Shown here: positions 2,641-5,227 of the stretch, piece after piece
How the letters are laid out: every line of letters starts with the position of its first letter
How positions within the stretch are numbered: position 1 is the stretch's first letter
Assembly (NCBI GenBank): GCA_934085825.1
Contig: CAKOHR010000004.1
Location: 33,308-97,307 of the forward strand
Direction of reading: 5' to 3'
Source: an uncultured Bacilli bacterium
Lineage (GTDB): Bacteria > Bacillota_I > Bacilli_A > RF39 > UBA660
Length of the DNA stretch: 64,000 bases
Translations under genes and position numbers: made by a program
The notes under the pieces: generated by a model
What the model saw: the letters and a program-made list of their open reading frames with translations, nothing else
The model's database searches: none
What the model was told of the DNA's origin: nothing

Positions 2641-3280
2641 TAAATCATATGACTCGAAATATAAAACAAATTTTGTTATCAGTAAATACTTAAGCACTAA
2701 AGATCATTGGATTATTGTTACAAATAAAGATGTTGAACAGCTATTCAAAATCATTATCATCATTTTGGTTCTAGTGAATGTTTTTTTAAAAAAAGCATAT
2801 AACACAATATATACCATGGCCTGTACTGTCATTCTATTTCTAACCACCATTGGTGCTGATTACTCTAAGAATACCAAATGTTATAAACCGGAAAAAATTG
2901 TTACTCAAAAAGTTTATAAAAATAAAGGAAAAGTACGGGTTATGTCCTTATTTAGGATTGGTTTAACTTTGTTTCATCGAGCCGTAAATTCACTAAAGTT
3001 ATTCGATTGCCAATAAGATTTATTCTCTATGATATTTAACGATAAAATTTTTATGACATTTCATATTAACATTTACAACTTTTAACTTTGACATTTCTAT
3101 CAGTTTCTATAATAATATTTATATTTATATTTATATATATTTATAATTTACACACAGTATTATAAAACGTCCCAAAATTTATAACCTGACAAAATTGCTC
3201 CTTCGTCGCAATTTACTTTCGGTTATTGCCGAAAGTTTTGCCTAGCACGCGGACGCGCTAGACAAGCTTGGCCTAAAGTA

Positions 3281-5227
3281 CTAGTTTATTACCATCGGGT
3301 CGCTGGCACTGCCGCTCCCCGATACATAGGTTGTGGAAGACAAAAGACTGAAGGACGGCCTCACAGCATTGTAGGTGGTCATACTGATGTCGAACACATT
3401 ACCACTGTTGCTCATAGAGAACGCACTGAACGAACCGCCCGCATTACGGGAAATTGTCCCCTCAACTCCTCCCATATACATCCAATTTGCACTTTTGATG
3501 GCTTCGCCATAATAATCAACAAGATTAGATGTCCATGCACTAGGGGCTGCTGCAAATCCATAGTCACTTACATACATTAAGCCTATCTTCGCACTATATT
3601 CTGTTGCTCCATCTGTTGTATTTGTTGTTACTGGACTTACTATTTCATTTTGATATGCTACTGACGGTGTTACGTTAGCAATATTATCATATGTATTTCC
3701 TCCGACTTTCCATGTTGTTGTTGCTATTTTATTTGCCCATGTAGTTCCTATATTATTCAAGAAATTTGTATTTAAGTTTGTTTTATTCAATTCTGATTCA
3801 CTCCATGTATTTTTATTTGTTGCTTTATTCCAGGAATATCTATTTATTGTTGTTAAACTTCCTTTATAATATGAATCTGACGCATTTTTGGTCCATGAAC
3901 CGGAATAATCTCCATCTGTTCCTAAAAGATTACTATTTGCATAATCATATTTGATTAATTTTACTTGATCTCCGAATACTCCGATTATTCTATACAAGTT
4001 ATCTGTCGGACATGGTGTTGTGTTTGTTCCAAAACATACATAGTTACTTACACCCTCATCTGCAAGTGTTATCAATGTTTCTTCTCCTGCTCCAACTTCC
4101 TCTATTCCTAGAATATATCGTGATGCCGACGTCAAATAATAAGCGGTTCCAGTACAAGCATCCTGAGTAACTGTACTACCATCTAAAAGAGAAACATTAT
4201 CACCTGAAGAAGTAACACATTCATTATTGGAACTATCCCAAGAAACACTTTGTTTGTTTGTAAGTAAATCACTTAAAGAGTTATCACCATACATAATATT
4301 ATTACCATCGGTAACCTTATATACATTTAAACAATCTCCTTCATTTGCCGCATTTATCTCTTCATTTTTATTCATTACATCATTTCCATCATATTTACAT
4401 GAATATAAATCTCCATGAGCATTGCCACCAGAATACCTATATGAATTATCTCCGGCTCCATTTGTTAAGTTTGCATCATGATAATAGATACTTGTTGCTG
4501 GGCTTATGCTTTTTTTACTTAATGTAGTTATACAGCTTGCAAGTGTTTCACCTCCACTACAAACATCTGCTACAGTTGATGGAAATGGCTTTGTTTGTAA
4601 ATATACATCAATATTCATATTTGCATTTTCATTTACTGATTGGTCTGTTGAAAGATTAACAAATGTCAAAGTAAATGTCCATGTATGTGTTGTTCCTGTA
4701 CTTGATGATGTTGTAGATATTGGATAATCTGTTTTAACATTAAATAAGCCTGATTTATCTGTTATATCAAATCCTGATACTCCCCCAGAAGTTGCATATG
4801 TTAAACCAACTACGGATGTAACATTATTTCCTTTTTCATCTTTAATTGTTAAGAGTACTTCTGGTGTTTTGTCTGTTGTTGAATATGTATATGTATTATT
4901 TTTTATGTATACACCAACATAATATGTTGCATCTGCTTTATTTGTTTTACTTGATGCTACTAACTTAGCTGTTGGATTGCTCGTATCAGTTAAATTCGTT
5001 CCTCCGGTTGTAAAATTATCTGCTGTAGCTGAAAGTGATAGTGCTTTTCCAGTATTAAATATTATTGTATCCCCACTTGCAGTAACTTCTCCCTTATTAC
5101 TTGCATCTTCACCTACGTCCGGTGCTAAGTAAGAAAATGTAAATTTACCTATAAAAAGAGCTATTACTAAAAGAATTAAAATTATAATTATTACTAAAAA
5201 TACTTTACGGGTATTAATTTTTTCCAT
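3281..5227 (-). CDS. Large secreted/surface protein, N-terminal signal-anchor with SipW-type-like motif, Thr/Ser/Asn-rich; C-terminal ~95 aa encoded by GC-rich DNA
   Basis: 648-aa ORF; N-term MEKINTRKVFLVIIIILILLVIALFIGKFTFSYLAPD then TASGDTIIFNT resembling TasA/camelysin N-terminal region; no C-terminal sorting signal. Confidence 0.65.
   Translation of the reverse strand: MEKINTRKVFLVIIIILILLVIALFIGKFTFSYLAPDVGEDASNKGEVTASGDTIIFNTGKALSLSATADNFTTGGTNLTDTSNPTAKLVASSKTNKADATYYVGVYIKNNTYTYSTTDKTPEVLLTIKDEKGNNVTSVVGLTYATSGGVSGFDITDKSGLFNVKTDYPISTTSSSTGTTHTWTFTLTFVNLSTDQSVNENANMNIDVYLQTKPFPSTVADVCSGGETLASCITTLSKKSISPATSIYYHDANLTNGAGDNSYRYSGGNAHGDLYSCKYDGNDVMNKNEEINAANEGDCLNVYKVTDGNNIMYGDNSLSDLLTNKQSVSWDSSNNECVTSSGDNVSLLDGSTVTQDACTGTAYYLTSASRYILGIEEVGAGEETLITLADEGVSNYVCFGTNTTPCPTDNLYRIIGVFGDQVKLIKYDYANSNLLGTDGDYSGSWTKNASDSYYKGSLTTINRYSWNKATNKNTWSESELNKTNLNTNFLNNIGTTWANKIATTTWKVGGNTYDNIANVTPSVAYQNEIVSPVTTNTTDGATEYSAKIGLMYVSDYGFAAAPSAWTSNLVDYYGEAIKSANWMYMGGVEGTISRNAGGSFSAFSMSNSGNVFDISMTTYNAVRPSFSLLSSTTYVSGSGSASDPMVIN

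What the first reader, a model, noticed from the sequence alone, without database searches (positions are those of the whole stretch)
3186..3480. GC-rich island covering the 3' end of the large surface-protein gene and its downstream hairpins
Local GC jumps to ~50% in a ~28% GC genome. The last ~95 codons of the 648-aa secreted protein use atypical GC-rich codons (e.g. TCG GGG AGC GGC AGT GCC AGC GAC CCG). Downstream lie GC-stem hairpins (CTTTCGG-TTATTG-CCGAAAG; CTAGC...GCTAG) and several 6-bp palindromic sites (ACTAGT, AAGCTT). This suggests a horizontally acquired or recombined C-terminal module, or the remnant of a foreign element.
Basis: seen in the sequence. Interest (0 to 1): 0.55.

Follow-up and report, generated by a model that had tools for sequence, protein, structure and literature searches.

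The report
Orphaned DGR variable region, now static
The GC-rich patch is the hypervariable end of a gut-bacterial surface-protein gene, once rewritten by a diversity-generating retroelement (DGR) whose reverse transcriptase and template have since been deleted from this locus; it is a known kind of element and not foreign DNA.

Summary
The GC island is real: 49.5% GC against 27.4% for the window, the highest peak in 64 kb. It is not horizontally acquired DNA. It is the variable region (VR, 3453..3355, minus strand) of a diversity-generating retroelement (DGR) target gene. A conserved GC-rich coding tail, the stop codon and a 12-bp-stem/4-nt-loop hairpin (3265..3238) follow it.

I predicted the template repeat (TR) from the VRs alone and found it exactly in 46 human-gut contigs. 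There it sits in cassettes ordered target, hairpin, leader, TR, MutS-like ORF, Avd-like ORF, reverse transcriptase. In 31 same-contig TR/VR pairs, 573 of 581 mismatches lie at TR adenines.

The cassette's protein genes are 19-25% GC. Only the VR, tail, hairpin, leader and TR are GC-rich, because the adenine-poor TR scaffold is 69% G+C and A-to-N mutagenesis adds more.

The window has no TR, RT, Avd or MSL. Homology to cassettes stops exactly at the hairpin foot (3238), and syntenic relatives keep about 170 nt more of the cassette leader. The VR is identical in strains that differ by 6-40 SNPs, whereas cassette-linked VRs differ at 19-26 sites between contigs with identical flanks.

Verdict: an orphaned, currently static DGR target, a new member of a known kind.

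The parts
3281..5227 (-). Target gene: 648-aa surface protein with an N-terminal membrane anchor or signal; member of a very large family in uncultured gut Bacilli
   Evidence: ORF. More than 7,900 homologs. The exact protein is on 10 human-gut contigs. No Pfam hit for this copy.
3284..3823 (-). C-terminal DUF6273-like (C-type-lectin-like) domain that carries the VR
   Evidence: AlphaFold2 model with pLDDT 96.1 and pTM 0.88. Foldseek matches 9qa6, whose N-terminal domain is annotated DUF6273 (E 5e-4; PMC12402451). Top BFVD hits are DUF6273 phage proteins. 26 of 99 diverse relatives hit PF19789.
3355..3453 (-). Variable region (VR): the 99 nt homologous to the DGR template repeat TTTCCCGT...CGGCCGT
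   Evidence: TR alleles found. Window VR against the nearest TR allele: 24 mismatches, 18 at TR adenines. Coordinates. GC 0.51.
3335..3367 (-). IMH-like 3' boundary: a 13-nt G/C-rich block shared with the TR (GCTGTGAGGCCGT), then about 20 nt that match the TR's 3' flank only imperfectly
   Evidence: TR/VR alignments. Assigned by analogy with IMH/IMH* as described in PMC5758913. This is an inference.
3284..3354 (-). GC-rich coding tail (...SFSLLSSTTYVSGSGSASDPMVIN), outside TR homology
   Evidence: GC 0.51. The 117 nt from the VR end to CTAGGCAA are 95-97% identical to cassette-linked targets (L018, L028, L034, L037, L040, L062), while the 300 nt upstream of the VR are 73-76% identical. Internal stem TCGGGG...CCCGA, z -2.7.
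3281..3283 (-). Stop codon TAG
3238..3265 (-). Post-VR inverted repeat: TTGTCTAGCGCG-TCCG-CGTGCTAGGCAA, a 12-bp stem (two G.T pairs) with a 4-nt loop; the candidate DGR target-recognition hairpin or cruciform
   Evidence: DNA fold -9.2 kcal/mol, z -3.8, 0 of 200 shuffles as good. Identical in intact cassettes. Apex variants in other cassette types include one compensatory G-C to C-G pair.
3237..3238 (.). Breakpoint where homology to DGR cassettes ends; the leader, TR, MSL, Avd and RT are missing beyond it
   Evidence: blastn end-points at 3238 for about 12 cassette loci. Alignment. The same junction CTAGGCAA|AACTTTCGGCAA is in L005, while L015 and L073 retain about 170 nt of leader.
3192..3235 (-). 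Two native intergenic hairpins (3216-3235 and 3192-3214, the latter followed by TTTT), probably terminators and not part of the DGR module
   Evidence: Folds. Both lie downstream of the cassette remnant in L015. The consensus terminator scan did not call them.

Best explanation
The island is what a diversity-generating retroelement (DGR) left at the 3' end of its target gene. In intact relatives, a cassette lies immediately downstream of the target gene. Its order is hairpin, a GC-rich leader of about 170 nt, a 99-nt template repeat (TR), a spacer, a MutS-domain-I-like ORF, an Avd-like ORF and a reverse transcriptase. The cassette is transcribed, and the RT copies the TR into cDNA while misincorporating opposite adenines. 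The cDNA then replaces the variable region (VR) of the target gene, randomising the AAY codons of a DUF6273/C-type-lectin-like ligand-binding surface.

The VR is GC-rich in a 27% GC genome for two reasons. First, scaffold codons in the TR must avoid adenine and are 69% G+C. Second, A-to-N mutagenesis converts the TR's 34% adenines into a mix of bases. The coding tail and the post-stop hairpin are the cis elements that mark a VR as recipient (an inference from the Bordetella phage system).

At this locus the TR, accessory genes and RT have been deleted, with the break exactly at the foot of the hairpin. The gene is therefore an orphaned target whose VR is frozen in one variant in all sampled strains.

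Shown here: the TR, the cassette, the adenine specificity, the deletion and the stasis. Inferred: the roles of the tail and hairpin, and the absence of a trans-acting DGR elsewhere in this genome.
For: (1) A TR predicted only from VR comparisons (CGTAATGCGGACAATTCGAACAATGCGTTCAATGTG) occurs exactly in 46 gut-metagenome contigs, with AAY wherever the VRs vary.
(2) 417 of 425 mismatches in 22 distinct same-contig TR/VR pairs fall at TR adenines, as do 156 of 156 in nine contigs of a sister species.
(3) Cassette genes: RVT_1 at E 8e-13 with IGNMTSQ and YMDD motifs, MutS_I at 24.8 bits (cut-off 20.6), and bAvd-like at E 1.4e-4.
(4) Window VR: 18 of 24 mismatches to the nearest TR allele are at adenines.
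(5) The post-VR tail and hairpin are 95-97% identical to those of cassette-linked targets, and homology ends at 3238. The syntenic loci L015 and L073 keep the leader remnant.
(6) GC is high only in the VR, tail, hairpin, leader and TR. RT, Avd and MSL are 19-25% GC.
(7) The window has no TR, no RT, Avd or MSL, and no leader or spacer motifs.
(8) Stasis: the VR is identical in L002, L003 and L004, which differ by 16, 40 and 6 substitutions over 9-14 kb, and the 90% cluster holds no VR variants. Cassette-linked VRs differ at 19-26 sites between contigs with zero differences over 4.1 kb of flank.
(9) The fold is DUF6273-like. DUF6273 is a published DGR-target domain with a C-type-lectin-like fold (PMC11792537, PMC10743442).
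Against: The cognate TR and RT of this particular genome were not found, and only 64 kb plus about 7 kb of a 303-kb contig could be read, so a trans-acting DGR elsewhere cannot be excluded. The window VR has 6 non-adenine differences from the nearest sampled TR allele (two GTG>ATG, among others). Some are explained by TR allele variation between species, but not all. The hairpin loop is TCCG, not the GRNA consensus. It lies 93 nt after the VR end, against 4-34 bp in phage DGRs (PMC3240598). The hairpin and tail are perfectly intact, unlike in other cassette-less copies (L005, L013, L015 and L008/L012/L017). That could mean they are still under selection for trans-homing.
Confidence: 0.78

Rival explanations
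1. The module is the same DGR variable region, but it is still a live remote target. A DGR cassette elsewhere in this genome supplies RT, Avd, MSL and TR RNA in trans. The retained IMH-like end, GC-rich tail and hairpin direct occasional retrohoming into this gene.
For: Remote targets more than 100 kb from the RT are documented for non-phage DGRs (PMC5758913), and IMH plus hairpin suffices for targeting (PMC3240598). The window's tail and hairpin are intact and 95-97% identical to those of active cassettes, while other orphans have decayed stems or AT-rich tails. One MAG carries three VR-bearing genes. Alleles at this cassette-less locus in different species all carry different, adenine-patterned VRs, although L015 and L073 seem to share an old deletion junction in the leader.
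Against: There are no VR differences among four strains of this allele, nor in 21 contigs of the P0007 allele up to 1.8% diverged, whereas cis VRs change with no flank divergence at all. The VR has six non-adenine mismatches, and a Trp>Gly change unique among 39 VRs lies just 5' of it. No cassette lies beside L33/EF-P or RmuC, where the sister species has one.
Confidence: 0.17
2. The island is horizontally acquired foreign DNA from a higher-GC donor, recombined onto the 3' end of the gene.
For: There is a sharp local GC jump. The C-terminal half of the gene is mosaic between conspecific strains. An IS110 element lies 0.8 kb away.
Against: The GC-rich segment is an in-frame, family-wide conserved scaffold. 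Its exact template exists in AT-rich native cassettes whose genes are 19-25% GC. The mosaic tract (4432..3226) is mostly AT-rich and far larger than the island. No match was found in viral contigs.
Confidence: 0.03
3. It is an ordinary family feature: amino-acid composition (Gly, Ala, Ser, Arg, Pro) and local codon bias of a conserved C-terminal domain, plus GC-rich terminator hairpins, with no retroelement involved.
For: GC2 is moderately high along the whole gene. Hairpins downstream of a stop codon are commonly terminators.
Against: The jump is in GC3, not GC2. Older orphan copies encode the same tail motif with AT-rich codons (L008, L012, L017), so the protein does not require GC. Variation is adenine-templated. 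Hairpin 1 has no T-run, and the terminator scan found nothing.
Confidence: 0.02

Closest known systems
Diversity-generating retroelements with Avd and MutS-like (MSL) accessory genes and non-adjacent or remote targets (e.g. Legionella and Treponema denticola DGRs; survey in Wu et al. 2018, PMC5758913)
   Same: A VR of about 100 nt at the 3' end of a surface-protein gene. A TR next to an RT that has the IGxxxSQ motif. Differences confined to TR adenines. G/C-rich constant flanks. An inverted repeat after the VR. MSL co-occurring with Avd. Target genes that lie away from the RT.
   Different: Here the target has demonstrably lost its own adjacent cassette; remnants remain in relatives. Its VR is invariant across strains, so it looks like an ex-target, not a working remote target.
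Bordetella phage BPP-1 DGR target-recognition elements (IMH plus hairpin/cruciform; Guo et al. 2011, PMC3240598)
   Same: A GC-rich inverted repeat with a 4-nt loop downstream of the point where TR/VR homology ends, and a G/C-rich block at the 3' end of the VR.
   Different: The stem is 12 bp with two G.T pairs (8-bp core), against 8 bp. The loop is TCCG, not GRNA. The hairpin starts 93 nt after the VR end, not 4-34 bp, and lies beyond the stop codon, with a conserved GC-rich coding tail in between. Function was not tested here.
DUF6273 (PF19789) DGR target proteins of gut phages (Faecalibacterium prophages, PMC11792537; tentaclins, PMC10743442)
   Same: A DUF6273-like fold, reported to be C-type-lectin-like. 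The VR maps to the C-terminal end of the domain and ends in a ...VRP.F.L motif.
   Different: This is a chromosomal bacterial surface protein, not a phage tail protein. The sequence match to PF19789 is below threshold for this copy (0 hits; 16 of 51 close and 26 of 99 distant relatives hit).

Membership tests
DGR variable region / target gene | A cognate template repeat exists that differs from the VR (almost) only at TR adenines | tested here: met
   For the family: 417/425 and 156/156 mismatches at adenines in same-contig pairs. For the window VR against the nearest sampled TR allele: 18 of 24 at adenines, 6 not. The TR of this very genome was not recovered.
DGR variable region / target gene | A DGR-clade reverse transcriptase (with accessory Avd) encoded next to the TR | tested here: met
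   In relatives: RVT_1 at E 8e-13, IGNMTSQ and YMDD motifs, bAvd-like at E 1.4e-4 (below Pfam's cut-off), MutS_I above its cut-off.
Complete (autonomous) DGR locus in this window | TR and RT present near the VR | tested here: not met
   No TR by blastn or by an adenine-tolerant scan of 64 kb. No RT, Avd or MSL by tblastn and no leader or spacer motifs. None within +/-10 kb on L001-L007.
DGR variable region / target gene | IMH-type G/C-rich 3' end of the VR and a GC-rich inverted repeat downstream | tested here: met
   A 13-nt G/C-rich block shared with the TR, then imperfect homology. A 12-bp stem with a 4-nt loop, z -3.8, conserved in cassettes. The loop sequence and the 93-nt distance depart from the phage consensus (PMC3240598). 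Function was not tested.
DGR variable region / target gene | The VR lies in a C-type-lectin-type (or Ig-type) ligand-binding fold | tested here: inconclusive
Actively diversifying DGR target | The VR differs between otherwise near-identical genomes or within populations | tested here: not met
   The VR is identical in four strains that differ by 6-40 SNPs, on 10 contigs, and the 90% cluster has no variants. Positive control: cis VRs differ at 19-26 sites with identical flanks. Read-level heterogeneity could not be tested.
Horizontally transferred genomic islet | Composition atypical over a whole acquired unit, with a donor-like source or mobility genes as part of the unit | tested here: not met
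   High GC is limited to about 215 nt of nucleic-acid-functional sequence, while the associated retroelement genes are 19-25% GC. The IS110 nearby is a separate polymorphic insertion that L002 and L005 lack.

The most novel reading that the evidence does not exclude
The VR, GC-rich coding tail and hairpin may form a self-sufficient, portable 'recipient module' of about 215 nt. After the loss of its own cassette it is retained intact, cut exactly at the hairpin foot, because a DGR elsewhere in the genome still rewrites it occasionally in trans. In that case the 71-nt GC-rich coding tail, which lies outside TR homology yet is 95-97% conserved at the nucleotide level, would be a previously unrecognised extension of the DGR target-recognition signal. 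It would explain why the hairpin sits 93 nt rather than 4-34 nt from the VR.
Probability: 0.15. Interest if true: 0.5.

Novelty: new member of a known kind. Interest (0 to 1): 0.3.

Why it matters
It turns an apparent foreign GC island into a precise, testable annotation: a DGR recipient site in an uncultured, AT-rich human-gut Bacilli lineage. It also gives a mechanistic reason for such islands, namely an adenine-purged template scaffold plus A-to-N mutagenesis. In AT-rich genomes, a sharp GC3 spike at the 3' end of a surface-protein gene followed by a GC hairpin is therefore a cheap sequence-only flag for DGR targets, including orphaned ones that RT-centred DGR finders miss. The locus series also documents how DGR cassettes decay and how a once-hypervariable adhesin-like protein becomes fixed. 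The series runs from intact cassette, to leader remnant, to hairpin only, to an AT-ameliorated tail without a hairpin. For DGR specialists this is an incremental result, not a surprise.

Tried and rejected
(1) A first scaffold pattern starting at GGACAATTTCCCGT found only VRs in GTDB genomes (7 loci) and nothing in viral contigs. It missed TRs because TR/VR homology starts later, at ATTTCCCGT.

(2) The TR-specific pattern found nothing in IMG/VR, so there is no evidence that this DGR is phage-borne.

(3) The first AlphaFold run, with 51 close homologs, gave pLDDT 48 and was discarded without a fold search. A profile search of PDB sequences found nothing relevant.

(5) Rfam found no family in the island or in the cassette leader, TR and spacer.

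(6) I looked for the window's own DGR through RT homologs. All the chromosomal RT loci examined belong to a sister species (83-93% identical in shared genes), so the cognate TR was not recovered.

(7) The restriction-site palindromes are at chance level. I rejected the idea that hairpins 2 and 3 belong to the DGR module, because in L015 they lie beyond the cassette remnant.

(8) I considered using VR differences between the window and L005 as proof of trans-diversification. I rejected this because the whole C-terminal half of the gene is a mosaic allele.
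Full report
**Observation.** The segment 3186-3480 is 49.5% G+C in a window that averages 27.4% (SD 4.5% for windows of that size). It is the highest peak in the 64 kb. The only other stretch above 42% is the glycine-rich core of ftsZ. The gene concerned is on the minus strand (3281..5227, 648 aa, N-terminal hydrophobic anchor). Codon-position analysis shows that GC3 jumps, from 0.1-0.2 to 0.5-0.7, over about the last 60-75 codons and not 95. CTAGCGCG-TCCG-CGTGCTAG extends to a 12-bp stem at 3238-3265 (-9.2 kcal/mol as DNA, z -3.8). CTTTCGG-CAATAA-CCGAAAG is at 3216-3235 (z -6.1). A third hairpin lies at 3192-3214. The 6-bp palindromes are at chance level: 3 seen, 4.5 expected.

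**What it is.** The protein belongs to a very large family (more than 7,900 hits) from uncultured human-gut Bacilli, including Firmicutes bacterium CAG:460 and Hadza MAGs. Aligning the C-termini of close homologs showed an invariant scaffold with free variation between the fixed residues:

NWMYMG..(E/D)WTISR.A..S..AF.V...G.V.......(A/G)VRPSF.L.S..TYVSGSGS..DPMVIN

At the DNA level the syntenic ortholog L005 and seven GTDB loci share the codon frame CGT NNT GCG GNC NNT TCG NNC NNT GCG TTC NNT GTG NNC NNC NNT GGT NNC GTG. This is the signature of a DGR variable region whose template carries AAY codons.

I therefore wrote out the predicted template, CGTAATGCGGACAATTCGAACAATGCGTTCAATGTG, and searched the metagenome contigs. 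It occurs exactly in 46 human-gut contigs. There it is part of a 99-nt template repeat (TTTCCCGT...CGGCCGT) that lies 366-405 nt downstream of a VR in a paralogous target gene.

The cassette reads as follows:
- target gene, stop codon and hairpin;
- a GC-rich leader of about 170 nt;
- the TR and a spacer;
- a 124-136-aa ORF with a MutS domain I match (24.8 bits, cut-off 20.6);
- a 117-122-aa bAvd-like ORF (E 1.4e-4);
- a 358-368-aa reverse transcriptase (RVT_1 E 8e-13, motifs IGNMTSQ and YMDD).

This is the Avd+MSL class of DGR described by Wu et al. 2018 (PMC5758913).

**Adenine specificity.** In 22 distinct same-contig TR/VR pairs, 417 of 425 mismatches are at TR adenines (A>G 210, A>T 158, A>C 49). 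In nine contigs of a sister species with an intact chromosomal cassette, 156 of 156 are. The window's own VR (3453..3355) differs from the nearest sampled TR allele at 24 positions, 18 of them adenines.

**Why it is GC-rich.** The TR is 34% A, but its non-adenine positions are 69% G+C. Mutagenesis then turns many adenines into G, C or T, giving a VR of 51% GC. The retroelement's protein genes are extremely AT-rich (RT 19-20%, Avd 21-22%, MSL 25% GC). High GC is confined to the VR, coding tail, hairpin, leader and TR. So the island is not foreign DNA. It consists of the nucleic-acid working parts of a native, AT-rich element.

Older cassette-less paralogs (L008, L012, L017) encode the same tail motif with AT-rich codons and have no hairpin. 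The protein therefore does not demand the GC-rich tail.

**Anatomy downstream of the VR.** TR/VR homology ends at ...GGCCGT. The next 117 nt comprise the coding tail, the stop codon and the hairpin up to CTAGGCAA. They are 95-97% identical to the corresponding part of cassette-linked targets of the L018, L028 and L037 type. The 300 nt upstream of the VR are only 73-76% identical to the same loci.

Homology to about a dozen cassette loci stops at exactly 3238, the foot of the 12-bp hairpin. Beyond that point the window has native intergenic sequence with two further hairpins. In the syntenic locus L015 these lie downstream of about 170 nt of retained cassette leader. L073, another syntenic allele, also keeps the leader remnant. 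L005, a conspecific strain, shares the window's junction CTAGGCAA|AACTTTCGGCAA.

Truncated TRs occur in other contigs (L022, L047, L054, L063). Cassette decay is therefore recurrent, and the window represents a late stage: VR, tail and hairpin only.

By analogy with the Bordetella phage system, IMH plus a GC-rich hairpin or cruciform is sufficient to mark a recipient (Guo et al. 2011, PMC3240598). The retained piece would then be the recipient module. Its loop (TCCG) and its distance from the VR (93 nt) differ from the phage consensus (GRNA, 4-34 bp), and its function was not tested.

**Is it still being diversified?** The window contains no TR (blastn; adenine-tolerant scan), no RT, Avd or MSL homolog, and none of the leader or spacer motifs. 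None lies within 10 kb on related contigs. In a sister species the intact cassette sits beside PDDEXK-L33-EF-P, in some strains downstream of RmuC. The window has those genes without a cassette.

The exact 648-aa protein is found on 10 contigs. Its 90%-identity cluster in a collection of about 15 billion proteins contains no VR variants. Contigs from three other samples differ from the window by 16, 40 and 6 substitutions over 9-14 kb, yet have an identical VR. The P0007 allele at the same cassette-less locus is identical in 21 contigs, including strains 1.8% diverged.

In the positive control, contigs with zero differences in 4.1 kb of flank differ at 19-26 of the 99 VR positions, and nine contigs carry nine VRs.

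The window VR also carries six non-adenine differences from the nearest TR allele, including two scaffold Val>Met changes. A Trp>Gly change just 5' of the VR is unique among 39 VRs. TR allele variation between species explains some of the non-adenine differences.

I conclude that this VR is currently static and most probably orphaned. I cannot exclude a trans-acting DGR in the unread 240 kb of the contig or the rest of the genome, and the perfect state of the tail and hairpin keeps that rival alive (about 0.17).

**Protein context.** A first AlphaFold run on a shallow alignment failed (pLDDT 48). With 98 diverse representatives, the last 180 residues modelled at pLDDT 96 and pTM 0.88. Foldseek gave one significant PDB hit, the Thomasclavelia ramosa IgA peptidase (9qa6, E 5e-4), whose N-terminal domain is annotated DUF6273 (PMC12402451). 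The top matches in BFVD are DUF6273 phage proteins. 26 of 99 relatives hit PF19789.

DUF6273 is a recurrent DGR-target domain with the VR at its C-terminal end (PMC11792537). It has been reported to resemble the C-type lectin fold (PMC10743442). A direct comparison with Mtd or TvpA could not be run.

**Additional layer: mosaic alleles.** The window and L005 are 98% identical in their flanks and in the N-terminal part of the gene. From 4432 to 3226 they are only 79% identical and differ by a 125-codon indel. The locus therefore also exchanges whole C-terminal halves by recombination.

**Comparison and novelty.** Every component has precedent: adenine-specific TR/VR pairs, Avd+MSL cassettes, non-adjacent targets, GC-rich flanks, post-VR inverted repeats and DUF6273 targets. 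New here are the lineage, the clean decay series and the demonstration that this copy is frozen. I file it as a new member of a known kind, of modest interest.

The least ordinary reading still open is that the conserved GC-rich tail is an extended recognition element that keeps the module serviceable in trans (probability about 0.15).

Noticed in passing
window 1192-2439 (+); direct repeats 580-625 and 2573-2618: An IS110-family transposase (DEDD_Tnp_IS110 plus Transposase_20) is inserted between the target gene and the ThrRS leader. The ~2-kb insert is bracketed by a 46-nt direct repeat (91% identical). It is absent from L002 and L005, so the insertion is polymorphic within the species.
   Followed up: partly
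window 354-538 (-), upstream of the partial ThrRS gene at 1-313 (-): T-box leader, 54 bits (E 2.4e-10). This is below Rfam's gathering score of 93, so the default scan missed it.
   Followed up: partly
window 3226-4432 versus L005 10810-11625: Within one species (flanks 98.3% identical), the C-terminal half of the target gene is a divergent allele: 79% identity plus a 125-codon insertion in the window at about 4050-4432. This is recombinational mosaicism on top of DGR variation.
   Followed up: partly
window 6691-8376: Tandem YhcG/DUF1016 PD-(D/E)XK nuclease paralogs, about 77% identical to each other. One is intact (6895-7800) and the second is partly degraded. Copy number and state differ between strains (L072 versus L073).
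   Followed up: no
L064 4833-4990; L018, L023, L052 equivalents; remnants in L015 (minus strand ~2170-2010) and L073 (~6620-6760): A conserved GC-rich leader of about 170 nt (44% GC) lies between the post-VR hairpin and the TR. It has internal complementary blocks (GCTGCCGCG...GCGG...GGCAG) and matches no Rfam family. It may be the structured 5' part of the DGR RNA.
   Followed up: partly
L052 (oriented) 2876-3286; L064 5312-5686: The first ORF after the TR has a MutS domain I match, the MSL accessory class of Wu et al. 2018. It always occurs here together with the Avd-like ORF.
   Followed up: partly
L022, L047, L063 and L054 (TR sites listed); L011 4895-5133: Independently truncated TRs. In L022, L047 and L063 the TR is cut after ...GATGGTAACG and fused to the upstream region of an MBL-fold hydrolase gene, the same gene that follows the decayed cassette in Firmicutes bacterium CAG:460. 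In L054 the TR is cut after ...AACGTGAA. Cassette loss is recurrent in this clade.
   Followed up: partly
hairpin apex in L019/L052 (CTAGCGAC-GAA-GGTGCTAG) and L064 (CTAGCGAC-GGA-GGTGCTAG) versus window 3242-3261: Other cassette types keep the outer stem but replace the apex with a C-GAA-G or C-GGA-G mini-hairpin. That gives one compensatory G-C to C-G pair relative to the window type.
   Followed up: partly
window 3460-3462 (-): The codon just 5' of the VR is GGG (Gly), where all 38 other VR-bearing loci have TGG (Trp of the W-T-I-S-R motif). It may be a sign of relaxed constraint in this orphaned copy.
   Followed up: partly
window 14448-14819 (-): A short ORF (123 aa) with a Cas12f1-like/TnpB TNB domain hit in the precomputed annotation of L001. 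It is probably a TnpB fragment.
   Followed up: no
window 17971-18181: The second-highest GC stretch in the window is the GGGTGTG/glycine-rich core of ftsZ (ORF 17302..18363, minus strand). This is ordinary.
   Followed up: yes
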